In this document: positions 494 through 62,662 of the stretch, one piece after another
Layout: each line of letters opens with the position of its first letter
Position numbering within the stretch: position 1 is the stretch's first letter
DNA from: an uncultured Candidatus Saccharibacteria bacterium
GTDB taxonomy: Bacteria > Patescibacteriota > Minisyncoccia > UBA6257 > CAYRSR01
Assembly: GCA_964427275.1 (NCBI GenBank)
Contig: CAYRSR010000002.1
Coordinates: 1,956-65,955, forward strand
DNA: 64,000 nt
Direction: 5' to 3'
Made by a program: the position numbers and the translations under genes
The notes under the pieces: model-generated
The model's input: only the letters and a program-made list of their open reading frames with translations
What the model was told of the DNA's origin: nothing
Databases searched by the model: none

Positions 494-692
494 CATAATA
501 AATTTAAAATATAAATATCAAAATGTAAAATGACAATTAAAAATTCAAAATTAACAAATTCTAAAAATGTAAAATGTAAAAATCAAAAATCAAAATACTA
601 TAATCAATTTTCAATTTTCAAATTGTTAATTTGTTTGAAAATTAGCTCGCCCACTCGCAATACTTAGGTCTATATTGATGAGCAGATTATAG
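494..692. repeat. AT-rich modular intergenic repeat element, copy A, between divergent tRNA genes
   Basis: Shares the blocks AAATTTAAAATNTAAATATCAAAATG, AAAATGTAAAATGACAATT and AATCAATTTTCAATTTTCA...TTTGTTTGAAAATT with copies at 14425-14644, 57747-57878 and 58764-58904. Confidence 0.6.
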
Positions 693-897: not shown

Positions 898-971
898 GGG
901 CCGTTAGCTCAGTTGGCTAGAGCGTCTGCGTGGCACGCAGGAGGTCAAGGGTTCAAGTCCCTTACGGTCCA
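898..971 (+). tRNA. tRNA-Ala (anticodon GGC)
   Basis: GGGCCGTTAGCTCAGTTGGCTAGAGC...; G3:U70 Ala identity pair present; anticodon loop gtGGCac; T-arm GGTTCAAGTCC. Confidence 0.8.
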
Positions 972-993
972 CAGAAACAAAGCTCAAGCTAAA

Positions 994-4549: not shown

Positions 4550-5527
4550 ATGGAAAAGAAAAAAGTAGTAACAATTGGTGGTGGAACAGGAAGCTATAAC
4601 CTACTGAGGGGATTAAAAAAATACACTGATAAAATTGAAATTAGTGCAATAGTGACAATGATGGATTCAGGGGGAAGTTCAGGAATACTAAGAGACGAAT
4701 ATGGAGTTTTACCGCCGGGAGACATCAGAAGATGTTTAATAGCCTTATCCGATGAAACTGAAATCCTTAAAAAGCTATTTAATTACAGGTTTCATTCTAA
4801 AAAAGGAAATAGTTTGTCAGGCCATAACTTTGGCAATTTGTTTTTAACTGCACTGGAAAAAATACTAAACAGCGAACAAAAGGCAATTAAGTTTGCTTCC
4901 AAAATTTTGAAAGTAAGAGGTAAAGTATTGCCGGTAACTTTTCAAAGCACTCATCTGTATGCACGCCTGGAAGATGGAACCCTAATTAAAGGAGAATCAG
5001 TAATTGATTTGCCTCGTTCAACTTCAAACTTAAGAATTAAAAGACTATATCTAAAACCTCCGGCAGAGGCAAATCCAGAAGTTTTAATAGCTATAAAACA
5101 GGCTCAGGTTATAATAATAGGCCCGGGAGATTTATTTACCAGTATTATTCCAAACCTAGTAGTTAATGGAGTATCCAAAGCTATTAGAAAATCAAAAGCC
5201 TTAAAAATTTATAACTGCAATATAATGACCAAATATGGTGAAACCAATGATTTTTCAGTTTATGACCACTTGGCTACCATTGAAGAGTATATTGGTTGTC
5301 CTTGTATTGATGTTTTAACCTATAACAGCAAAAAATTGAGGTCAAAGATTTTGAAAAGATACCAACGAGAAAAAGCTAAACCAGTAAAATTTATCCAGAA
5401 TGAATTCAAGTCTAGAAATATAGAAATAATCGGTAGAAATTTAGTTACCGAACCAAATGTAGCCAGGCATGACCCGGAAAAAATTGGAAAACTAATTATG
5501 AAAATAATCTCTAAAAGGTTGAGCTAA
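4550..5527 (+). CDS. YvcK/CofD-family (UPF0052) gluconeogenesis-factor-like protein
   Basis: VVTIGGGTGSYNLLRGLK...IVTMMDSGGSSGILR...LPPGDIRRCLIAL is characteristic of the YvcK/2-phospho-L-lactate transferase fold. Confidence 0.7.
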   Translation: MEKKKVVTIGGGTGSYNLLRGLKKYTDKIEISAIVTMMDSGGSSGILRDEYGVLPPGDIRRCLIALSDETEILKKLFNYRFHSKKGNSLSGHNFGNLFLTALEKILNSEQKAIKFASKILKVRGKVLPVTFQSTHLYARLEDGTLIKGESVIDLPRSTSNLRIKRLYLKPPAEANPEVLIAIKQAQVIIIGPGDLFTSIIPNLVVNGVSKAIRKSKALKIYNCNIMTKYGETNDFSVYDHLATIEEYIGCPCIDVLTYNSKKLRSKILKRYQREKAKPVKFIQNEFKSRNIEIIGRNLVTEPNVARHDPEKIGKLIMKIISKRLS

Positions 5528-12778: not shown

Positions 12779-14143
12779 TTAGTCTGCTGGAAATAAATGA
12801 TAGTAACTAATTATAAATTGAGCTAGTTCCTTAAATGCTGGAACTACCGTAATTCCTGCTAAAGGTGCACCTTCTGGCTTTTCCAATTTTACCAGAATGA
12901 CAATTTCCGGTGAAGTGCCCGAGATAAATCCTACAAAAGTGTTAATTACTTCTGAGCTATATCCGCCATTTTCTAAATCTGGAACTTGAGCAGTACCAGT
13001 TTTTCCTCCTATCTTATATCCATCAATCACAGCTACACCTGCCTTTTCTACAGTACTGATTAACATCAATTTTATTTGTTCACTTACTTCTGGGCTAATA
13101 GTATTTCCAATTATCTTCTTGCCCAACTTTTTATTTAGATATGGTCGCATTAGCTTACCTCCATTAATTAAACTTGAAAAAGCATTAATAAGTTCAATCG
13201 GAGTTACTGATATTCCCTGTCCAAATGAAGCACAGGCAAAATTCAGTGGCTGATTATCCTTAAGATTTGAAAGATCTCCATGTTGTTCAAATGGAAAATC
13301 AATGCCAGTTGGCTGGTCAAAGCCAAATTTTTTTAAGTAATTGTAAAAAGTTTGATGACCAATCTTTCTTTCCAGAAGGACTGCTCCAGTATTAATTGAA
13401 TGTTCTAATACATCCTTTATAGTTATTTCTCCATAACTTTTATTGTCCCAGTTGGTAATAGTTTTAGAGCCAATGGTAACCTTGCCCGGATCAAATAGAG
13501 TGTAATCTGGAGTGAATGAGCCTGAATCCAGGCCAGCAGCTATTGTGAATGGCTTTATTACTGAACCAGGTTCATATCTTTTACATATAGCCTGGTTTAC
13601 AAATAGACTTGGATTGGCTTTATTGTATTGATTTGGATTAAAATCTGGCTTACTGGCTAATGCTAAGATTTCTCCACTATTTGGATTTTGAACAATAATG
13701 GTCCCGGCTTGGGCATTAGTTCTTTTAATCAGCTGTTCTAAAATACTTTCAGCTTGATTCTGAATGTTTATGTCGATAGTTAAATACTGGTCCTCTCCTT
13801 GTTCCAATTGTTGATTATAATATCTTTCCAAACCGTATAAGCCAGTTGGAAACTTATTCTCTTTTGTATAGCCAACATAACCAATAAGTTGAGAAGCTAA
13901 GTTTTTTAATGGACAATACCTGGGATTTCTAAAATCACCAGTTCGATTTAGAGCTACAGGAAAGCTATTATTATGGCGGTCAGTGAAAAAAAATATTCCT
14001 CTAGAATTCTTAATTGAAACGTAAGAATCTTGCTCAGCTTTAACTAAATTAGTTTTTCCAACCTGAAGATCATAAAGACGGAAAACCAAAAAAGAATAAC
14101 CAAGCCAAAACAATATTGCCAGGAATATTATTTTAGACTTCAT
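12779..14143 (-). CDS. ftsI: Penicillin-binding protein FtsI (PBP3), septal transpeptidase
   Basis: N-terminal TM anchor, SVIKP (SxxK) and GKTGTAQ (KTG) motifs; follows ftsL. Confidence 0.8.
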   Translation of the reverse strand: MKSKIIFLAILFWLGYSFLVFRLYDLQVGKTNLVKAEQDSYVSIKNSRGIFFFTDRHNNSFPVALNRTGDFRNPRYCPLKNLASQLIGYVGYTKENKFPTGLYGLERYYNQQLEQGEDQYLTIDINIQNQAESILEQLIKRTNAQAGTIIVQNPNSGEILALASKPDFNPNQYNKANPSLFVNQAICKRYEPGSVIKPFTIAAGLDSGSFTPDYTLFDPGKVTIGSKTITNWDNKSYGEITIKDVLEHSINTGAVLLERKIGHQTFYNYLKKFGFDQPTGIDFPFEQHGDLSNLKDNQPLNFACASFGQGISVTPIELINAFSSLINGGKLMRPYLNKKLGKKIIGNTISPEVSEQIKLMLISTVEKAGVAVIDGYKIGGKTGTAQVPDLENGGYSSEVINTFVGFISGTSPEIVILVKLEKPEGAPLAGITVVPAFKELAQFIISYYHLFPAD

Positions 14144-14424
14144 AAGTTGGAAGCTGAAAGATACTTTGGACTTGATTCTAGAATCAAGCCTTGCTGTTTG
14201 GCTATTTTTTCCAAGTTAGAGGGACTGGTTACCTGATATAGCTCTTTCTGAAGGCCCAAATTAATGCTTTTTAAACTAGCCAGCTCATTTTCTAGATTTT
14301 TAATCTGATAATGGAGAGAAACCAGCTGATTGTATTGGTAAATGTACAATTCACCAAGAAGTAAAAGTATACCCAGGAAAATCAACCAGTTATACTTTTT
14401 TGGTGATGATTTAATAATAGTCAT
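14140..14424 (-). CDS. ftsL: FtsL/DivIC-like cell-division protein (single TM plus coiled coil)
   Basis: 94 aa; TM helix then leucine-zipper-like coiled coil; sits between rsmH and ftsI as in canonical division/cell-wall clusters. Confidence 0.6.
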   Translation of the reverse strand: MTIIKSSPKKYNWLIFLGILLLLGELYIYQYNQLVSLHYQIKNLENELASLKSINLGLQKELYQVTSPSNLEKIAKQQGLILESSPKYLSASNL

Positions 14425-14644
14425 AATAAAAAATTTAAAATGTAAATATCAAAATGAAAAATGCTATTAATCAATTTTCAATTTTCATTGAATTTTCAAT
14501 TTTCAATTACCGAGTCCCATTATCGAGGTTGAACCTCGATAATTTCTTCCTTCTAAATTGCATTTGTTTGAAAATTGGTTTATTGATAATTGATTGAAAA
14601 TTAGAAATTGAAAATTGTAAATTGTAATTTTGATTTTTAAATTT
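14425..14644. repeat. AT-rich modular repeat element, copy B, inserted between rsmH and ftsL; long imperfect palindrome with a central perfect hairpin
   Basis: Left arm AAATTTAAAATGTAAATATCAAAATG...CAATTTTCAATTTTCA mirrors right arm TGAAAATTGTAAATTGTAATTTTGATTTTTAAATTT. Central perfect 10 bp stem ATTATCGAGG/CCTCGATAAT (14519-14543, loop TTGAA). Shares blocks with copies A, C and D. Confidence 0.6.
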
Positions 14645-15538
14645 TTAACTTACTATGGCTGCTCTTAGTTTAGCTGAGCGACTTCGAGGATTGAATTTGA
14701 TTTCTTCTGGATCAGGAACTACTGGCTTTTTGGTAATAATCTTTACCTTTTCCTCTTTAGCTAATTGTCTAAATTTATTCTTTACTATCCTATCTTCTAA
14801 AGAATTAAAAGAAATCACCACTACTCTTCCATTCGGTTTTAAAATTTCTGGCAAGTTATTAAGTACTTTCTCAAGATTCTCTAGTTCCCTATTTGCAAAG
14901 ATTCTTAAGGCTAAAAATGTTTTTGTAGCTGGATGAATTCTTCTTCTTCGATAACTTAAAGGTACTGCCAATTTTACAACTTCTGCTAGTTCTAAATTGG
15001 TCTCAATTGGTTTTATTCTTTCTCTCTCTTTTATAGCTTTAGCTATTCTTTTGGCATACCTTTCTTCTCCGTAGATTTTTAAAACCCAGGCTAGCTCCTT
15101 TTGATTCATCTTCTTGAGCAGTTCCTTTACTGGAGTATATTCAGGAGAATAAATCATCAGCAGTGGTTCAGATTTACCTGAGAAAGAAAATCCTTTTCCG
15201 CTTTGAAGCTGAATTGATGAGAATCCCAGATCTAAAAGCAATCCATCAGCCTTTCCTAGTTTTTCTTGCTTAAGAATTGTAGTTAGGTCAGCAAAATTTC
15301 CATTTCTGAAAACCAATTTTATTTGCTTATCCTTTAATACTTGAGTTAATCGCTTCTTAGCCAGATTTAAAGATTCCAAATCTAAATCAACTCCTAAAAA
15401 CTTTCCGGCATTCATTTTTTTCAGGATTACTTCTGAATGTCCTCCACTTCCAAGAGTTCCATCAATAAAAAAATCTCCAGGTTTCAAATCCAATATTTCC
15501 ACAACCTTTTTTAAAAGAACTGGAATATGATACATCAA
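14645..15538 (-). CDS. rsmH: 16S rRNA (cytosine1402-N4)-methyltransferase RsmH
   Basis: GTLGSGGHS SAM-binding motif; position downstream of mraZ; 297 aa. Confidence 0.85.
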   Translation of the reverse strand: MMYHIPVLLKKVVEILDLKPGDFFIDGTLGSGGHSEVILKKMNAGKFLGVDLDLESLNLAKKRLTQVLKDKQIKLVFRNGNFADLTTILKQEKLGKADGLLLDLGFSSIQLQSGKGFSFSGKSEPLLMIYSPEYTPVKELLKKMNQKELAWVLKIYGEERYAKRIAKAIKERERIKPIETNLELAEVVKLAVPLSYRRRRIHPATKTFLALRIFANRELENLEKVLNNLPEILKPNGRVVVISFNSLEDRIVKNKFRQLAKEEKVKIITKKPVVPDPEEIKFNPRSRSAKLRAAIVS

Positions 15539-16926: not shown

Positions 16927-17442
16927 CTATTTCTTCGACCTTTGTTCCAAAATATACAATAAATTTGCCAGTGGATTTTTTAAGCTGGAAATTAAGTTAT
17001 AAATTGGGCTCCCAATTAATCCAATTAATCTGCCAAACAAGTTTTCCCGAGAGGGTGACTTTACTAGAATTTCTACTATTTCTTCTTCTTTCATTTCTTT
17101 TCCAATTAAATCATAAATTCCTAGCAACTTAAATTGATCCAAATTCAATAAATCTTTCATTTTAAGGATTACTTTCCCAATATCTCCTAGTACGAATATG
17201 ATACCTAGCTGACCAGAATAAATTTCTCTTGGGTCAATTTCAATATCTTTTTCTCTAAAACCAATCTTTAGTAACCTTTTTTTTATAATTTTCAGTGTAG
17301 CCTCTTTTTTAATATCCTTTCTTAACCTGATAAACTCCATGGCTGGAATTTTGGAAAATCCAAATAAAATCAAGCTATTAGCTTTTTCCAAAAGCTTTTT
17401 ACATTCCTCTAATTCTTTAATTTTTTGTTGTTTAGATTTCAT
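16927..17442 (-). CDS. rplJ: 50S ribosomal protein L10
   Basis: Position immediately upstream of rplL and typical uL10 N-domain; 171 aa. Confidence 0.85.
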   Translation of the reverse strand: MKSKQQKIKELEECKKLLEKANSLILFGFSKIPAMEFIRLRKDIKKEATLKIIKKRLLKIGFREKDIEIDPREIYSGQLGIIFVLGDIGKVILKMKDLLNLDQFKLLGIYDLIGKEMKEEEIVEILVKSPSRENLFGRLIGLIGSPIYNLISSLKNPLANLLYILEQRSKK

Positions 17443-17561
17443 TAAATAAAAAAATCTGCTTCCGCAGACTTATGTTTATTAGCTACCCTCGGCAGGAATT
17501 TAGGAACCTGCTGTCTGCGGATAGTCAAAAAGAATATAAACAATTTTAAATTAAATGTCAA
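17443..17561 (-). promoter_or_regulatory. Consensus sigma70-type promoter (TTGACA-17-TATATT) and structured leader upstream of rplJ
   Basis: On the minus strand, -35 TTGACA at 17561-17556, a 17 nt spacer, and -10 TATATT at 17538-17533. The ~85 nt leader has paired CCGCAGAC/GTCTGCGG segments and a CTGCGGAAGCAG hairpin followed by a T-run just before the ATG. Confidence 0.45.
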
Positions 17562-18332: not shown

Positions 18333-18809
18333 ATGGTTTTTTTAGTGAAACTACTGGCGATAGTGGTTAGCTTAGTATGTCTGGATTATTTTTTGACAGC
18401 CATTGTACCCTGGCCTTATCGTCGAAAAAAGGAAATTAGAGTTTTTCTAATTTGCCCGGTTAGAAAAATCAAAGAGGAAGAAAAAGTAGCAATTAAAGAA
18501 TATATTGAAAATCTAGAATCAAAAGGATATAAGGTCTACTGGCCGTTAAGAGACACTGATCAAAATGATCCAATTGGTATTCGGATTTGTACTGATAATG
18601 CTAGAGCAATTATGAAAGCAGAAGAAATTCATGTCTGGTATAATCCTTCTTCTTCCGGTTCAAAATTCGATCTGGGAATGGTGTTTATGTTCAACCTTCT
18701 AAACCCTAGAAAAAGAAAGAAAATTATTATTGCCAACCCTTCAGCTGTTAGGGAAACAGATTATAAGAGCTTTGAAAATCTTTTGTTATATTTAGCAAGA
18801 CAAAAATAA
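18333..18809 (+). CDS. Hypothetical membrane-anchored protein with a nucleoside 2-deoxyribosyltransferase-like Rossmann core
   Basis: Strong RBS AAGGGAGGTGGGG; N-terminal TM helix; core VFLICPVR...HVWY...SSGSKFDLGMVF resembles the NDT/SLOG-like motif; followed by a strong intrinsic terminator. Family assignment is tentative. Confidence 0.4.
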   Translation: MVFLVKLLAIVVSLVCLDYFLTAIVPWPYRRKKEIRVFLICPVRKIKEEEKVAIKEYIENLESKGYKVYWPLRDTDQNDPIGIRICTDNARAIMKAEEIHVWYNPSSSGSKFDLGMVFMFNLLNPRKRKKIIIANPSAVRETDYKSFENLLLYLARQK

Positions 18810-53961: not shown

Positions 53962-54411
53962 TCAGCTAATTTTTTCTATTACCTTTCCACCAGCTTTTTC
54001 AATTTTTCGTTTAGCAGTTTTCGATACCGGCAATTCAACCTCTATCGGTTTATCAATTTCTCCATCTCCTAAAATTTTAACTTTCTTTTTAGATTTCTTG
54101 ATTAATCCATATTGACAAAGAACCTCCTGATTAATTTTAGTAAGTTTTTTTTGTTCCACCAGCTTGCTTATATCATCTAGATTAAATACTTGAGGTTTTA
54201 TCCTCTTTGCTTCCCAATAGGACATTCTGAAACTTTTTCCTCTTAATTTTGGGTATTTTAGTATGGTATCTCGATAAAATAATCTTAATTTTCTTCCAGC
54301 TCTGGCTTTCTGTCCTTTCATTCCTCTCCCAGAGTAATTTCCTCTTTTTCCTCCACGACCAACTCTTTTTTTAGTTTTGAATCTAGTTGAGGATAGCTGA
54401 TGTAACTGCAT
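53962..54411 (-). CDS. rplO: 50S ribosomal protein L15
   Basis: GRGGKRGNYSGRGMKGQKARAG glycine-rich N-terminus. Confidence 0.9.
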   Translation of the reverse strand: MQLHQLSSTRFKTKKRVGRGGKRGNYSGRGMKGQKARAGRKLRLFYRDTILKYPKLRGKSFRMSYWEAKRIKPQVFNLDDISKLVEQKKLTKINQEVLCQYGLIKKSKKKVKILGDGEIDKPIEVELPVSKTAKRKIEKAGGKVIEKIS

Positions 54412-54430
54412 ACTTAAAGTAAATAAAAAC

Positions 54431-54889
54431 TTAACCTTTTAACTTTTTTAAGGCCTTAACCGTAGCTAAGGCAGTGGTCAGTTTGTTTTTGGTATGACTT
54501 AAGATTTTGCAGGAAATATCCTTTACTCCTCCCAATTCCAGAACTACTCTGGCTGCTCCCCCAGCTATTAAGCCATGCCCAGCTCGAGCTGGCTTAATTC
54601 TAACTCTAGCTGCACTATACTTTGCTTCTACTTCATGTGGAATTGTGCGATTCTCTCTTAAAGGTATGGTAAATAACTTCTTTTCGGCATCACGCTCAGC
54701 CTTGTCAATTGCTTCAGCTACATCTAATCCTTTGCCAATTCCTACTCCTACTTTTCCATTTCTATTGCCAACTACCAGAGTAGCTCGAAACTTAAATCTT
54801 TTGCCCCCAGCTACCACTCGAGCTACTCTTCTTAAATCCAGAACTAACTTCTCCATTTTTTCTTCTTTTTTTATTTCTTTTTCAGCCAT
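54431..54889 (-). CDS. rpsE: 30S ribosomal protein S5
   Basis: dsRBD-like N-domain plus S5 C-domain; 152 aa. Confidence 0.9.
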   Translation of the reverse strand: MAEKEIKKEEKMEKLVLDLRRVARVVAGGKRFKFRATLVVGNRNGKVGVGIGKGLDVAEAIDKAERDAEKKLFTIPLRENRTIPHEVEAKYSAARVRIKPARAGHGLIAGGAARVVLELGGVKDISCKILSHTKNKLTTALATVKALKKLKG

Positions 54890-55858: not shown

Positions 55859-55977
55859 AAAAGCCTGATTTTAATGTTATATTACAGTAAGTACTTTGTC
55901 AATTGGTTGATAAGCTACTAGTCAAGCTTTGGTTTAAAAGATTTTAAGCTAGGTAAAATTCTAATTTAGATTTTTAC

Positions 55978-56349: not shown

Positions 56350-56370
56350 AAAAAATTTTGCATTTTTCTA

Positions 56371-57377: not shown

Positions 57378-57746
57378 TTAAACTACGTTTTTAGCTAGAT
57401 TAACAATGTTTTTAAATCCCTTTTCAGCTAATTCATGAGGAACCGGGCCAAAAATTCTAGTGGCTTTGACCTCTTTCTTTTTAGTGGTTAATACCGCAGC
57501 ATTTTCGCTGAATCTTACATAAAATCCTCCTTTTCTCCTAAAATTTTTTCGCTGTCTTACTATGACTGCATAAACTATGTCGCCTTTTTTAACTGACTTT
57601 CCTGGTTCAGCTTTTTTTACTGAAGCAACAATTATATCTCCAATTTGAGCATATCTTCTTCTGGTTCCACCCAAAATCCTGAAGCATTGAATCAATTTTG
57701 CTCCAGAATTATCAGCCACTTTTAACATTGTACGTTCTTGAATCAT
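57378..57746 (-). CDS. rplN: 50S ribosomal protein L14
   Basis: [17 protein letters not shown]... typical uL14; 122 aa. Confidence 0.9.
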
Positions 57747-57878
57747 AACAAATGTAAAATTTAAAAATCAAAATGTAAAATGACAATTTAAAATTCAAAA
57801 TGAACAAATGTTAAAATGATTTTAAGCTTGTCAATTTTAACATTTTGCATTGTAGTTTTGATTTTTGATTTTTTAATT
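57747..57878. repeat. AT-rich modular repeat element, copy C, between rplN and rpsQ; contains the ~75 bp unit in + orientation
   Basis: 57751-57826 (AATGTAAAATTTAAAAATCAAAATGTAAAATGACAATTTAAAATTCAAAATGAACAAATGTTAAAATGATTTT) is ~95% identical to the reverse complement of 58831-58904. The rest of the element is a partial inverted copy. Confidence 0.65.
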
Positions 57879-58112
57879 TTAAATTTTCTTGATTATTCTC
57901 CACCTCTTCTCTCTACTTAATGGCCTAGTTTCCTCAATTATCACTCTGTCTCCTACTTTGTACTGATTTTTCTCATCATGAGCCTTAAATCTCTTAGAAT
58001 ACTTATAGTACTTACGGTAAAGTGGATGTTTCTTTAATCTCTCCACCAAAACAACTCTGGTCTTATCCATTTTATCTGAAACTACTATTCCTTTTAATCT
58101 TTTTCTAGCCAT
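57879..58112 (-). CDS. rpsQ: 30S ribosomal protein S17
   Basis: OB-fold uS17; 77 aa. Confidence 0.9.
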
Positions 58113-58127
58113 AATTTTTGATATATT

Positions 58128-58337
58128 CTACTTAGTTAACCTGGATTTTTCAATTCTTATAGTTAAGATTTTAGCAATATTCCTTTTTACCTTTCTAATT
58201 TCCCTAACATTCTTTAGTTTTCCAGCTGCCAAATCAAAGTTCAATTGCTGTAGTTTTTTTTTGGATTCTTGCAATTCCCGGTCTAATTCCTGAAGACTCA
58301 TAGTATGTAATTTTTTAAGATATTCTTTAGCCTTCAT
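58128..58337 (-). CDS. rpmC: 50S ribosomal protein L29
   Basis: Helical uL29; 69 aa; operon position. Confidence 0.85.
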   Translation of the reverse strand: MKAKEYLKKLHTMSLQELDRELQESKKKLQQLNFDLAAGKLKNVREIRKVKRNIAKILTIRIEKSRLTK

Positions 58338-58346
58338 ACTTGTTTG

Positions 58347-58763
58347 TCAGGTTGCGCTGATAACTTTTGTTTTAAGAGGTAGTTTATAACCAGCCAGAGT
58401 TAAAGCCTTTCGAGCCAGAGAATGATCAGGTGAATCAATCTCTATAATAATTCTACCCGGTTTTACCGGACATACATAGTGATCTACACTTCCTTTTCCT
58501 CCCCCCATTCCAACTTCTGGTGGAAACTTAGTAACTGGCTTATCTGGGAAAACTCTTATCCAGATTCTTCCGCTAGATTTAAGATAATGAACAATTACCC
58601 TTCTAGCTGATTCTAATTGTCGGTAAGTTAGCCAAGCTGAAGTTAAAGCCTGTAGCCCAAAGTTTCCAAAAACTAACTTCACTCCTCTTGTTTCTTTGTT
58701 TCGATTCAAGGAGCGCCCTTTTTGCCATTTCCTATGTTTTACTTTTCTTGGAGCCTCACGCAT
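58347..58763 (-). CDS. rplP: 50S ribosomal protein L16
   Basis: uL16 core; 138 aa. Confidence 0.9.
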   Translation of the reverse strand: MREAPRKVKHRKWQKGRSLNRNKETRGVKLVFGNFGLQALTSAWLTYRQLESARRVIVHYLKSSGRIWIRVFPDKPVTKFPPEVGMGGGKGSVDHYVCPVKPGRIIIEIDSPDHSLARKALTLAGYKLPLKTKVISAT

Positions 58764-58904
58764 AATAAATTAAAAATTTAAATATCAAAAATTAAAATTA
58801 CAAATCAAAATGTTAAAATTAGCAAATTTCAAAATCATTTTTAACATTTGTTCATTTTGAATTTTAAACTGTCATTTTGTATTTTGATTTTTAAATTTTA
58901 CATT
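58764..58904. repeat. AT-rich modular repeat element, copy D, between rplP and rpsC; contains the ~75 bp unit in - orientation
   Basis: 58831-58904 is the inverted copy of the 57751-57826 unit. The 5' part (AAATTAAAAATTTAAATATCAAAA...CAAAATGTTAAAATTAGC) resembles the first block of copies A and B. Confidence 0.65.
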
Positions 58905-59567
58905 TTACGTAAAGGTTTCACCTTTGTAAATCCAGACTTTTATTCCTAACTTTCCATAGACAGTTAAAGCCTCTGATTCTCCATAATCAATATTACTTCT
59001 AATTGTCTGCTGAGGAAGTTTTCCCTTGCTTAGATGCTCACATCTTGCATGTTCCGAGCCATCTAGTCTTCCACAAATTCTGATTTTGGCTCCAAGTACT
59101 CCGGGATGTTGCATTATATTGGCTAAATGAGTTTTCATTACTCTGCGAAACTTCTTTCTCTGCTCCAGTTCTGTAGCAATATATTGTGAAACTACACTTG
59201 CTGAAACATCAGTCCTTTTTAGTTCCTTGATATCAAGCTTAATCTGAGGCAATTCTTCAATATTCCTGGCTAGCCTATTTTTCCTAATCATTTTGACAAC
59301 GGCCTTATTCAGTTCTTCCAGTTTCTTTCCACCTCGCCCGATAATTAATCCCGGCCTGGCTGCTGTTATAATAACGTTAAGCTTTTCTCCTAGTCGTTCA
59401 ATTTCAATTTTATCTATTCCAGTACGTCCAACCCGTCTTTTTATTTCTTCTCTGATTAAATAATCCTCTTCTAATTGATAATTAAGCCTTCGCTGAAATA
59501 ACCAGCGACTCTTCCAATCCTTATTTATTCCTAATCGAAAAGAATATGGGCTAATTTTCCTACTCAT
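58905..59567 (-). CDS. rpsC: 30S ribosomal protein S3
   Basis: KH domain plus S3 C-domain; 220 aa. Confidence 0.9.
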   Translation of the reverse strand: MSRKISPYSFRLGINKDWKSRWLFQRRLNYQLEEDYLIREEIKRRVGRTGIDKIEIERLGEKLNVIITAARPGLIIGRGGKKLEELNKAVVKMIRKNRLARNIEELPQIKLDIKELKRTDVSASVVSQYIATELEQRKKFRRVMKTHLANIMQHPGVLGAKIRICGRLDGSEHARCEHLSKGKLPQQTIRSNIDYGESEALTVYGKLGIKVWIYKGETFT

Positions 59568-62156: not shown

Positions 62157-62588
62157 TTACTTCACTTCCAACCTTTTGATCTCACACTTGCTATTTTTGT
62201 ATCCTGGTACCGCTCCCTTTACAAATATTAACCGGTTAGATTTATCAACTTTTACCACTTTCAGGTTCTTTACTGTAACCATTCTTCCACCCATTCTTCC
62301 TGCCATCTTTTTTCCTTTAAGTACCCTTTGAGGTGTAGTTGCTCCAATAGAACCCGGAGCTCTAAATTTTTCTTTTTGACCATGAGTCTTTGGTCCTCCA
62401 GAAAAGCCATGACGTTTTACTACCCCTTGAAATCCCAATCCCCTACTTCTTCCTCTAACCGAAACTAATTCTCCTTCAGTTATGGTTATCGGTTCCTTCT
62501 CTTCTATTTTTAAAGGAGTAACCGGAATTACTTCCTCTCCTTTAAAGATTTGAGTCATTTTCATTTTTTTTGCTATAAATTTACTCAT
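62157..62588 (-). CDS. rplC: 50S ribosomal protein L3, minimal form with ~65 aa internal deletion
   Basis: N-terminal KKMKMTQIF and C-terminal [15 protein letters not shown]...[10 protein letters not shown]...VKGAVPG match uL3, but the protein is only 143 aa against ~210 in most bacteria. Confidence 0.8.
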
Positions 62589-62599
62589 ATTGAGATACT

Positions 62600-62640
62600 A
62601 AAAACTGCCAATCCGCTAAGTTTAGCAGACTAGCAGTTTT
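62600..62640. other. Long imperfect hairpin flanked by A- and T-runs between rpsJ and rplC (terminator/attenuator-like)
   Basis: AAAACTGC(62600-07)...GCAGTTTT(62632-39) outer stem with inner GCTA-agtt-TAGC palindrome; T-run follows on the plus strand and a short T-run on the minus strand. Confidence 0.4.
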
Positions 62641-62662
62641 TTATCAATCAATCAACACTTTT

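What the first reader, a model, noticed from the sequence alone, without database searches (positions are those of the whole stretch)
57747..58904. Inverted ~75 bp repeat pair bracketing rpsQ-rpmC-rplP inside the conserved S10/spc ribosomal-protein operon
The two intergenic gaps rplN|rpsQ (57747-57878) and rplP|rpsC (58764-58904) each carry the same ~75 bp AT-rich unit, AAATGTAAAATTTAAAAATCAAAATGTAAAATGACAATTTAAAATTCAAAATGAACAAATGTTAAAATGATTTT. It is in opposite orientations, about 95% identical between copies, with 3 substitutions and 1 indel. Each gap is also an imperfect long palindrome. In most bacteria these gene junctions are only a few bp long, so both elements are insertions into one of the most conserved operons. 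Together they form a ~1.15 kb inverted-repeat-bounded segment holding S17, L29 and L16. The repeats could be MITE-like mobile DNA, internal promoter or terminator modules, RNA-processing sites, or recombination substrates. None of these can be decided from sequence alone.
Basis: seen in the sequence. Interest (0 to 1): 0.75.

Follow-up and report, generated by a model that had tools for sequence, protein, structure and literature searches.

The report
Widespread AT-rich palindromic intergenic repeat family
The two odd spacers in this ribosomal-protein operon are copies of a roughly 135-base AT-rich palindromic repeat that recurs across many Patescibacteria (CPR) genomes, varies in copy number between near-identical strains, and whose outward-facing arms look like promoters placed just before start codons.

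Summary
Gaps 57747-57878 (rpsQ|rplN) and 58764-58904 (rpsC|rplP) are reverse complements of each other (88.5% over 131 nt; best arm pair 96%), and each is an imperfect palindrome.

They are not a private pair. Two more copies lie in the window: 497-640 in a tRNA spacer and 14425-14644 between rsmH and ftsL. A sister strain (98.9% identical) has an extra copy at rpsN|rpsH, where the window has only 21 nt. The arm core TCAAAATGTAAAATGACAAT occurs in at least 119 metagenome contigs of 24-57% GC, including a Buchananbacteria contig. Related genomes carry the family at other ribosomal-operon junctions.

Each arm is about seven AAAATKY heptads around an invariant AAAATGACART.

The elements fill stop-to-start spacers and are depleted between convergent genes (3/146, p=2e-4). 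Read outward, an arm gives TTGTCA-17 nt-TAnATT about 11 nt before the ATG. This motif is intact more often in start-facing arms than in end-facing arms (47% vs 22%, p=0.008).

Best reading: a new ERIC/Correia-like interspersed palindrome, copy-number variable, probably carrying outward promoters. The RNA hairpin is likely secondary. The "inverted-repeat-bounded segment" has no special meaning. No transcript data were available.

The parts
57747..57878 (.). Element A: 132-nt AT-rich imperfect palindrome filling the rpsQ|rplN spacer
   Evidence: 100% identical in the sister-strain contigs L083 and L084
57750..57816 (-). Arm of A facing the rplN start. It holds the canonical core (20-mer at 57768-57787). 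Read on the minus strand: TTGTCA (57786-57781), 17 nt, TAAATT (57763-57758), 11 nt, ATG (57746-57744)
57820..57886 (+). Arm of A facing the rpsQ stop. It is degenerate: the core is CTACAAT, and the outward reading gives TTGTAG...TTAATT
58764..58904 (.). Element B: 141-nt copy filling the rpsC|rplP spacer, inverted relative to A
58767..58833 (-). Arm of B facing the rplP start. Read on the minus strand: TTGTAA (58803-58798), 17 nt, TAAATT (58780-58775), 11 nt, ATG (58763-58761)
   Evidence: read; same geometry as A
58839..58905 (+). Arm of B facing the rpsC stop. It has the canonical core, but in this strain it carries all three A/B substitutions, one of which turns TTGTCA into CTGTCA. The sister strain keeps TTGTCA
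497..640 (.). Third family copy, between tRNA-Arg (692-765) and tRNA-Ser (404-494). The canonical arm is 503-547. Its outward reading gives TTGTCA, 17 nt, TATATT, ending 13 nt before the tRNA-Ser 5' end. The second arm is weak
14425..14644 (.). Fourth, more diverged copy between rsmH/mraW (14645-15538) and ftsL (14140-14424) in the dcw cluster. Its heptad arms are split by a central GC hairpin (ttatcgaggttgaacctcgataa). dG -50 kcal/mol, z -5
56350..56370 (-). Unoccupied rpsN|rpsH spacer (tagaaaaatgcaaaatttttt). The sister-strain contig L084 carries a further element copy at this site
57378..59567 (-). Flanking genes: rplN, rpsQ, rpmC, rplP, rpsC

Best explanation
The two spacers are copies of an interspersed, copy-number-variable, AT-rich palindromic intergenic element, comparable to ERIC or Correia elements. 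The family is spread through Parcubacteria/Paceibacteria-type Patescibacteria. Each arm is about seven degenerate heptads AAAATKY around an invariant core AAAATGACART. Two arms lie back to back around a variable centre.

Shown:
- the family exists within this genome and across many others;
- copies are gained or lost between near-identical strains;
- copies occupy different junctions in different genomes;
- copies fill the few-nt spacer between a stop codon and the next start codon;
- copies avoid junctions that have no gene start.

Inferred:
- Read outward, each arm is a sigma-70-type promoter: TTGTCA, 17 nt, TAnATT, then about 11 nt to the ATG. This would give very short-leader or leaderless transcripts, as this genome's own promoters appear to do.
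- The opposite A-tract arm may act as an UP-like upstream region.
- On this reading, A and B supply internal promoters for rplN and rplP. That would explain why insertions are tolerated inside essential operons.
- The arm pointing back into the upstream gene tends to decay.
- The long AU hairpin in read-through RNA is probably a by-product of the palindrome. It may still attenuate or be processed.
- Spread probably works by copying through heptad microhomology rather than classical cut-and-paste. No target-site duplication is seen, and the one filled/empty comparison shares AAAATGCAAA at the junction.
For: Family and spread:
- Four copies in the 64 kb window.
- An iterated nhmmer profile finds 232 arms, 102 of them without the seed 20-mer. 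These still keep AAAATGACART at 88-100% per position.
- The 57% GC carrier is a Candidatus Buchananbacteria contig. Named Patescibacteria MAGs L032, L034, L039, L040, L049 and L079 also carry the family.

Mobility:
- L084 (98.9% identical to the window) has an extra copy after rpsN. The window, L206 and L207 have 21 nt there.
- In the sister strain the A arm and B arm differ by only one indel.
- In other genomes the family sits at junctions including L3|L4, L2|S19, S19|L22, L22|S3, S3|L16, S17|L14, L24|L5, S14|S8, S8|L6 and after L18.
- Normal gaps at these junctions have medians from about -7 to 18 nt, except L23|L2 at about 52 nt.

Link to gene starts:
- Of 146 non-redundant elements, 124 are between co-directional genes, 19 between divergent genes and 3 between convergent genes. 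The background for convergent junctions is 10.4% (p=2e-4).
- Arm ends lie 0-8 nt from stop codons or 2-15 nt from start codons.

Promoter reading:
- TTGTCA-17-TAAATT is called at 57786-57758.
- The same geometry precedes rplP and tRNA-Ser.
- Intact TTGTCA plus TAnnnT occurs in 24/51 start-facing arms against 13/60 end-facing arms (Fisher p=0.008). CTGTCA occurs in 14/60 end-facing arms against 3/51 start-facing arms.
- The window's own non-element promoters place TATAAT-like boxes 6-10 nt before the ATG.
Against: - There are no transcript 5'-end data, so promoter activity is an inference.
- The -10-like hexamer has A at its second position in only 59% of start-facing arms. Fewer than half of start-facing arms pass the intact-motif test.
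- AT-rich heptad arrays generate promoter-like hexamers easily: the region gave 39 hits against 27 +/- 5 in shuffles.
- The close fit of elements to start codons could partly reflect very short native spacers rather than promoter geometry.
- In several relatives' ribosomal operons, the canonical TGACA arm sits after the upstream stop codon. There its outward reading is antisense, and the start-facing arm lacks TTGTCA.
- No target-site duplication was found, and no cognate transposase was searched for (no transposase-like gene was recognised in passing), so transposition is unproven.
- The p-values treat de-duplicated copies as independent, although some come from related strains.
Confidence: 0.6

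Rival explanations
1. RNA-level element. The long AU hairpin in the polycistronic mRNA is the functional unit: an RNase III processing site, stability determinant, attenuator or terminator that divides the operon transcript.
For: A and B fold into stems of about 60 bp (dG -27 kcal/mol, z -3 to -3.7) on either strand. The rsmH|ftsL copy has z -5. In relatives, 54% of 226 enlarged ribosomal-operon gaps have z below -3. Many family members have a central GC hairpin followed by a T-rich arm, which resembles a terminator flanked by A and U tracts. Correia and ERIC elements are known to act this way (background knowledge).
Against: Within two-arm elements, the arms are less alike at the variable heptad positions than random arm pairs are (0.35 vs 0.458 +/- 0.019). 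Pairing is therefore not being maintained. One arm is often degenerate or missing: 116 of 172 elements have only one detectable arm. The tRNA-spacer copy does not fold better than shuffles. What is conserved is sequence (AAAATGACART), not structure. A terminator would be expected between convergent genes, but those junctions are depleted. No terminator-like site is called in A or B.
Confidence: 0.2
2. A purely selfish MITE-like repeat with no role in expression. It is tolerated wherever it does not break a gene, and the promoter-like hexamers are a side effect of AT-rich heptads.
For: Insertion polymorphism and near-identical copies. Occupancy is patchy and genome-specific. The density is about 0.5 extra elements per 10 kb. 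AT-rich sequence gives many consensus promoter hits. The canonical arm shows no significant orientation preference relative to transcription (50:36, p=0.16).
Against: Neutral insertion should also populate convergent junctions, but only 3 of 146 do, against 10.4% expected. Start-facing arms keep the TTGTCA/TAnnnT motif more often than end-facing arms. The consensus is held across hosts from 24% to 57% GC. No target-site duplication was found, and no partner transposase was looked for. There are no hits in 2.9 million viral contigs that could act as vectors.
Confidence: 0.25
3. A binding array for a conserved DNA-binding protein, such as a nucleoid-associated, IHF/HU-like or regulatory protein. 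The protein would recognise phased A-tract heptads and the TGACA core, and would organise or co-regulate the flanking genes.
For: Conservation is periodic: AAAAT is invariant and two positions in each heptad vary. One irregular core is invariant. The pattern holds in either orientation and with variable arm spacing, with loops of 3-182 nt. WATCAA within the arm resembles half of the IHF consensus (background knowledge; one mismatch when read).
Against: No candidate protein and no fixed spacing between cores. This does not by itself explain the link to gene starts or the start-facing versus end-facing difference. It was not tested further.
Confidence: 0.1
4. An ancient lineage-specific spacer, a mere low-complexity AT-rich coincidence, or an invertible/composite segment bounded by the two inverted copies.
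For: The closest strains carry A and B at the same junctions. The sequence is 13-17% GC.
Against: The next-closest relatives (57-69% L16 identity) mostly have 1-18 nt at these junctions, or the family at other junctions. The identity is 88.5% over 131 nt. The same element sits as an 18% GC island in a 57% GC genome. Gene order is identical in every assembly that spans the segment, and inversion would reverse three essential genes within their operon.
Confidence: 0.03

Closest known systems
ERIC / IRU elements of Enterobacteriaceae and Vibrio (about 127-bp imperfect palindromes)
   Same: Similar size. Imperfect palindrome. Located in transcribed intergenic regions, including inside operons. Found in either orientation. 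The consensus is strongly conserved across genera while locations differ between species. No coding capacity. (ERIC properties are from background knowledge; the features of this family are.)
   Different: No sequence relationship is evident from the remembered ERIC consensus (it is not AT-heptad based); this was not aligned. The hosts are Patescibacteria. The arms are arrays of AAAATKY heptads with a TGACA core. This family is depleted at convergent junctions and abuts start codons.
Correia elements (CREE/NEMIS) of Neisseria
   Same: A 100-155 bp element with inverted ends, inserted next to genes and co-transcribed. Correia elements are known to carry outward-facing promoter elements, an IHF site and an RNase III-cleavable hairpin. 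This is the closest working model for 'mobile palindrome that brings a promoter'.
   Different: Correia elements have defined 26-bp terminal repeats and a TA target duplication. Here the ends are fuzzy and no duplication exceeds chance. The sequence is unrelated. Promoter activity here is inferred, not shown.
REP/BIME elements and RAYT-associated repeats; RUP and BOX elements of Streptococcus pneumoniae
   Same: Interspersed, non-coding, hairpin-forming intergenic repeats of bacteria, with copy numbers in the tens to hundreds.
   Different: REPs are short (20-40 nt) and GC-rich. They are typically found after gene ends and between convergent genes, and they are associated with a RAYT transposase. 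This family is about 135 nt, 13-20% GC, avoids convergent junctions, and no associated transposase was recognised in the window (none was searched for).
UP-element-assisted sigma-70 promoters of rRNA and ribosomal-protein operons
   Same: A-tract-rich DNA lies upstream of a -35/-10 pair with 17-nt spacing, in front of highly expressed genes (rplN, rplP, tRNA-Ser).
   Different: The module is repeated, palindromic and variable in occupancy. The -35-like box is TTGTCA and the -10-like box is weak (TAAATT or TACATT). There is no experimental start site.
TIGR arrays (tandem interspaced guide RNA arrays with Tas proteins, found in CPR bacteria and phages; PMC12045711)
   Same: Repeat-containing non-coding loci in CPR genomes, with palindromic parts.
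   Different: TIGR arrays have a 36-nt unit with box C/D-like motifs next to a Nop-domain Tas gene. Here the periods are 6-8, 13, 15, 20, 21 and 27 nt, never 36. The flanking genes are ribosomal proteins, tRNAs, and rsmH and ftsL. This is not a member.

Membership tests
MITE (miniature inverted-repeat transposable element) | Small, non-coding, multi-copy element | tested here: met
   The elements are 132-220 nt. Four copies lie in 64 kb, with about 0.5 extra copies per 10 kb in other carriers.
MITE (miniature inverted-repeat transposable element) | Terminal inverted repeats | tested here: met
   The whole element is an imperfect palindrome, and both arms match one 45-nt profile. The termini are not sharply defined.
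MITE (miniature inverted-repeat transposable element) | Target-site duplication flanking each copy | tested here: not met
   The longest direct repeat between the 20-nt flanks of 52 two-arm elements averages 4.33 nt, against 4.11 +/- 0.13 with permuted partners. A 2-nt palindromic duplication such as TA cannot be excluded.
MITE (miniature inverted-repeat transposable element) | Presence/absence polymorphism at orthologous sites | tested here: met
   The rpsN|rpsH junction is filled in L084 and empty in the window, L206 and L207. Only the left end of the insertion is assembled.
MITE (miniature inverted-repeat transposable element) | Cognate autonomous element or transposase sharing the termini | not tested
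   No systematic search was made. No transposase-like gene was noticed in the window, and the 20-mer has no hit in viral contigs.
ERIC/IRU | Match to the ERIC consensus sequence | not tested
   The consensus was not available in the tools. The element's composition (13-20% GC heptads) makes homology implausible. The resemblance is in architecture only.
Correia element | 26-bp terminal repeats with a TA duplication, outward -10 boxes, and an IHF site | tested here: not met
   No defined terminal repeat or duplication was found. Outward promoter-like boxes are present. The IHF-like WATCAA half-site is only a partial match.
Intrinsic (Rho-independent) terminator | Short GC-rich stem-loop followed directly by a U tract | tested here: not met
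   The scan calls no terminator-like site in either gap. A and B have no GC stem. Other family members do have a central GC hairpin.
Sigma-70-type promoter | -35 and -10 hexamers with 16-18 nt spacing upstream of a gene start | tested here: met
   The motif is TTGTCA-17-TAAATT-11-ATG before rplN, TTGTAA-17-TAAATT-11-ATG before rplP, and TTGTCA-17-TATATT before tRNA-Ser. Intact motifs are enriched in start-facing arms. Consensus matches are common in AT-rich DNA.
Sigma-70-type promoter | A mapped primary transcription start | not testable with these tools
   No transcriptome or 5'-end data are available for this uncultured organism.
TIGR array | 36-nt repeat unit with edge and loop repeats, and an adjacent Nop-domain Tas gene | tested here: not met
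   The Tandem Repeats Finder periods are 6-8, 13, 15, 20, 21 and 27 nt, never 36. The neighbours are ribosomal-protein, tRNA and dcw genes. The definition is from PMC12045711.
Any Rfam RNA family | Covariance-model match | tested here: not met
   No hit at gathering thresholds overlaps the elements. With E up to 10 on 57700-58950, only chance-level eukaryotic matches appear.

The most novel reading that the evidence does not exclude
A portable transcription module, found in at least three named Patescibacteria lineages. It is a palindrome of A-tract heptads in which each arm is both an outward core promoter for short-leader or leaderless mRNAs and the UP-like upstream region of the opposite promoter. 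It copies itself into the few-nt spacers ahead of genes by heptad microhomology, without a transposase. In doing so it repeatedly re-partitions otherwise invariant operons (S10/spc, dcw, tRNA clusters) into new transcription units in different lineages.
Probability: 0.3. Interest if true: 0.8.

Novelty: new member of a known kind. Interest (0 to 1): 0.6.

Why it matters
Patescibacteria have tiny, tightly packed genomes, and almost nothing is known about how they start and stop transcription. This work identifies an interspersed element with three notable properties. It keeps one consensus across hosts from 24% to 57% GC. It sits inside the most conserved operons. It is tied to gene starts.

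The element is useful in two ways. First, it is a practical marker: occupancy differs between strains that are 98.9% identical, and assemblies break at it. Second, it gives a concrete, testable handle on promoter architecture and leaderless expression in an uncultured radiation.

If the arms are real promoters, operon structure in these organisms is far more fluid than gene order suggests. If they are not, this is still the first family of ERIC/Correia-type repeats that I could find described for this group. Four literature searches and Rfam gave nothing.

Tried and rejected
- TIGR arrays: no 36-nt period and no Tas neighbour.
- Rfam at gathering and at lax thresholds: nothing relevant.
- Intrinsic terminator scan: no site in A or B.
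- Target-site duplications: none beyond chance.
- Phage carriage: no exact core match in viral contigs.
- Global orientation bias of the canonical arm relative to transcription: 50:36, not significant. Copies within ribosomal operons of some genomes are, however, mostly co-oriented.
- Selection for arm pairing: the opposite was found.
- tRNA genes next to arms in 119 metagenome loci, as an independent test of transcription versus translation: only one case within 60 nt, so uninformative.
- Enrichment in S10/spc clusters: 11 of 119 loci, roughly threefold by a rough estimate, not decisive.
- Right-hand end of the extra copy in the sister strain: not recovered. L084 ends inside the repeat, and the other S8 contigs are empty sites.
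- Closer relatives: none between 98% and 59% S3 identity in the protein database, so there is no graded series of genomes to date the insertions.
- Literature searches for CPR intergenic palindromes, MITEs or leaderless promoters: nothing relevant.
Full report
**1. What is there**

The window is 34% GC. The region holds a minus-strand S10/spc ribosomal-protein cluster: rpsJ ... rpsC 58905-59567, rplP 58347-58763, rpmC 58128-58337, rpsQ 57879-58112, rplN 57378-57746 ... rplO. The best L16 relatives are Patescibacteria MAGs labelled Harrisonbacteria, Colwellbacteria, Liptonbacteria, Wolfebacteria and Paceibacterota, at only 57-69% identity.

Most junctions in this cluster are -17 to 21 nt (row L001). 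The rpsC|rplP gap is 141 nt and the rpsQ|rplN gap is 132 nt.

The repeat call holds:
- Arms 57750-57816 and 58839-58905 are 96% complementary.
- Arms 57820-57886 and 58767-58833 are 82% complementary.
- The full gaps align in inverted orientation at 88.5% over 131 nt (E 2e-36) and in direct orientation at 76%, because each gap is itself a 71-76% palindrome.
- As RNA, either strand folds into one stem of about 60 bp: dG about -24 to -28 kcal/mol, z -2.8 to -3.7.
- Tandem Repeats Finder shows the arms are built from degenerate 7-nt units.

**2. The pair is part of a family within this genome**

Of 22 intergenic gaps of at least 30 nt, only four are dense in AAAAT/ATTTT:
- the two ribosomal-operon gaps;
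- 495-691, between tRNA-Arg and tRNA-Ser;
- 14425-14644, between rsmH/mraW and ftsL in the cell-division cluster.

All four lie between co-directional minus-strand genes. The tRNA copy keeps one canonical arm and only a poor second arm, and it does not fold better than shuffles. The dcw copy has its arms split by a GC hairpin.

**3. Recent gain or loss**

Two ENA contigs are 100% identical to the window.

Two JGI contigs, L083 and L084, are 98.9% identical over 5-6.5 kb.
- In them, element A is unchanged.
- Element B differs at exactly the three positions that distinguish B from A in the window. In the sister strain, therefore, the two best arms differ only by one indel.
- All three window-specific changes lie in the arm that faces the rpsC stop codon.

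L084 also carries a further copy directly after the rpsN stop codon.
- Its first 30 nt or so are unique.
- The next 74 nt are identical to A.
- The contig then ends.

The window, a Logan contig and a third JGI contig have only tagaaaaatgcaaaatttttt at that junction. The filled and empty alleles share AAAATGCAAA at the junction. This points to copying through heptad microhomology rather than cut-and-paste, but the right end is not assembled.

**4. The family is widespread**

The contigs range from 24% to 57% GC and come from many samples.
- The flanks are stereotyped over about 52 nt.
- An nhmmer profile iterated to convergence finds 232 arms, of which 102 lack the seed 20-mer.
- In 43 unique unseeded full-length arms, AAAATGACART is conserved at 88-100% per position and the AAAA blocks at 81-100% per position (mostly 100%). 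The two positions between blocks vary as K and Y.
- The 57% GC carrier is a Candidatus Buchananbacteria contig, where the element is an 18% GC island between two glycosyltransferase genes.
- There is no hit in 2.9 million viral contigs.

**5. Occupancy differs between genomes**

In 80 relatives, junction gaps in the cluster have medians from about -7 to 18 nt (L23|L2 about 52 nt; S10|L3 set aside because the window's L3 is short). Gaps of 60-300 nt occur sporadically at every junction: S3|L16 in 14 of 79 genomes and S17|L14 in 18 of 78.

Of 226 such gaps, 54% fold with z below -3.

The present family sits at junctions including L3|L4, L2|S19, S19|L22, L22|S3, S3|L16, S17|L14, L24|L5, S14|S8, S8|L6 and after L18 in different genomes. 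Other genomes carry other, genome-specific repeat families in the same kind of position, mostly co-oriented.

**6. Context**

- In co-directional two-arm elements, the 45-nt arm models end a median of 6 nt from each flanking ORF. The element therefore fills the spacer.
- Arm ends lie 0-8 nt from a stop codon or 2-15 nt from a start codon.
- Of 146 non-redundant elements, 124 are co-directional, 19 divergent and 3 convergent. The background is 79%, 10.6% and 10.4% in the same loci, so convergent junctions are depleted (binomial p=2e-4).
- Nearly every copy thus has a gene start on at least one side. This is unlike REP-type repeats and unlike terminators.

**7. How it may work**

Read outward, the conserved core is TTGTCA, followed by 17 nt and T-R-M-A-T-T.

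In the window:

| Gene | Outward reading |
|---|---|
| rplN | TTGTCA-17-TAAATT-11-ATG |
| rplP | TTGTAA-17-TAAATT-11-ATG |
| tRNA-Ser | TTGTCA-17-TATATT, 13 nt before the 5' end |
| ftsL | TACATT, 14 nt before the ATG |

The genome's element-free promoter regions place TATAAT-like boxes 6-10 nt before the ATG at 4550, 6445, 19019, 33275 and 38153. Most ribosomal genes here also lack a Shine-Dalgarno motif. Very short or absent leaders therefore look normal for this organism.

I set up one test before looking at the data. Intact TTGTCA plus TAnnnT is found in 24 of 51 start-facing arms against 13 of 60 end-facing arms (odds ratio 3.2, p=0.008). CTGTCA is the commonest defect in end-facing arms (14/60 vs 3/51). 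The window-specific change in B is exactly this T-to-C in the end-facing arm.

Against a structural role, the two arms of an element are less alike at variable positions than random arm pairs (0.35 vs 0.458 +/- 0.019). In addition, 116 of 172 elements have only one detectable arm.

**8. Limits**

- Promoter activity is inferred from sequence statistics only.
- The -10-like box is weak and often has G at the critical second position.
- AT-rich heptads make promoter-like strings easily.
- In several relatives the canonical arm is the one after the stop codon.
- The tight fit to start codons could partly be a consequence of tiny native spacers.
- My gene calls in metagenome loci are crude ORF-based calls.
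- Some copies come from related strains, so the p-values are approximate.

**9. Comparison and verdict**

The closest known things are ERIC/IRU and Correia elements. Both are interspersed imperfect palindromes of similar size in transcribed spacers. ERIC elements are conserved across genera while their locations differ. Correia elements have outward promoters and cleavable hairpins. These properties are from background knowledge.

This family is not a sequence member of either. It fails the target-site-duplication criterion for a classical MITE, and it matches nothing in Rfam. It is not a TIGR array. I found no paper describing it.

I file it as a new family of a known kind of element. I give about 0.85 confidence to the claim that it is a widespread, copy-number-variable interspersed repeat. 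I give about 0.4-0.5 confidence to the claim that its arms act as promoters.

Noticed in passing
window 62589-62662 (rpsJ|rplC gap, minus strand): A GC-containing hairpin (actgctagtctgctaaacttagcggattggcagt) followed by TTTTT. It folds with z about -5. It looks like a terminator or attenuator between S10 and L3 and is not part of the heptad family.
   Followed up: partly
window 55859-55977 (rpsH|rplF gap, minus strand): A 119-nt spacer with a good promoter-like match: TTGACA-17-TAACAT, 15 nt before the TTG start of rplF. It is unrelated in sequence to the palindromic family.
   Followed up: partly
window 62157-62588 and 54411-54431: The uL3 ORF is only 143 aa (usually about 210), and there is no rpmD (L30) between rpsE and rplO. 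The missing L30 is typical of CPR genomes. The short L3 may explain the large apparent S10|L3 'gaps' measured in relatives.
   Followed up: no
window 4550, 6445, 19019, 33275, 38153, 50644 (gene starts); 18333: TATAAT-like boxes end 6-10 nt before the ATG at several genes with real upstream regions, which suggests leaderless or near-leaderless mRNAs. A strong Shine-Dalgarno motif (AAGGGAGGTG) appears at 18333.
   Followed up: partly
L083:10217-12162 (JGI Ga0186713_162238): This sister-strain contig departs from the window in the middle of rplN and continues into unrelated genes (for example an ATP-cone protein). This is either an assembly chimera or a rearrangement.
   Followed up: no
L079, L057, L040, L039 (ribosomal-protein operons of related MAGs): Other genome-specific repeat families fill ribosomal-operon junctions. 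L079 has palindromes with arms GAAATGAGACATGAGAAATGAGG...CCTAATCTCTCATATCTCAT at eight or more junctions. L057 has five direct copies of about 200 nt. L040 and L039 have GC-rich CCCGTACGAAAC...GTTTCGTACGGG hairpins. Structured repeats inside this operon appear to be a general trait of the group.
   Followed up: partly
52 two-arm elements in L085-L203 and the window: The two arms of one element are less alike at the variable heptad positions than arms taken from different elements (0.35 vs 0.46). This fits selection against perfect long palindromes, or two distinct arm types.
   Followed up: partly
window 17440-17538 (minus strand): An Rfam L10 leader match (45.8 bits against a gathering score of 44) lies upstream of rplJ-rplL. 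This is an ordinary autoregulatory leader.
   Followed up: no
window 898-972 and 913-2040: The listed TTG start of the HtrA-like protease ORF (913) overlaps tRNA-Ala (898-972). The real start is probably further downstream.
   Followed up: no
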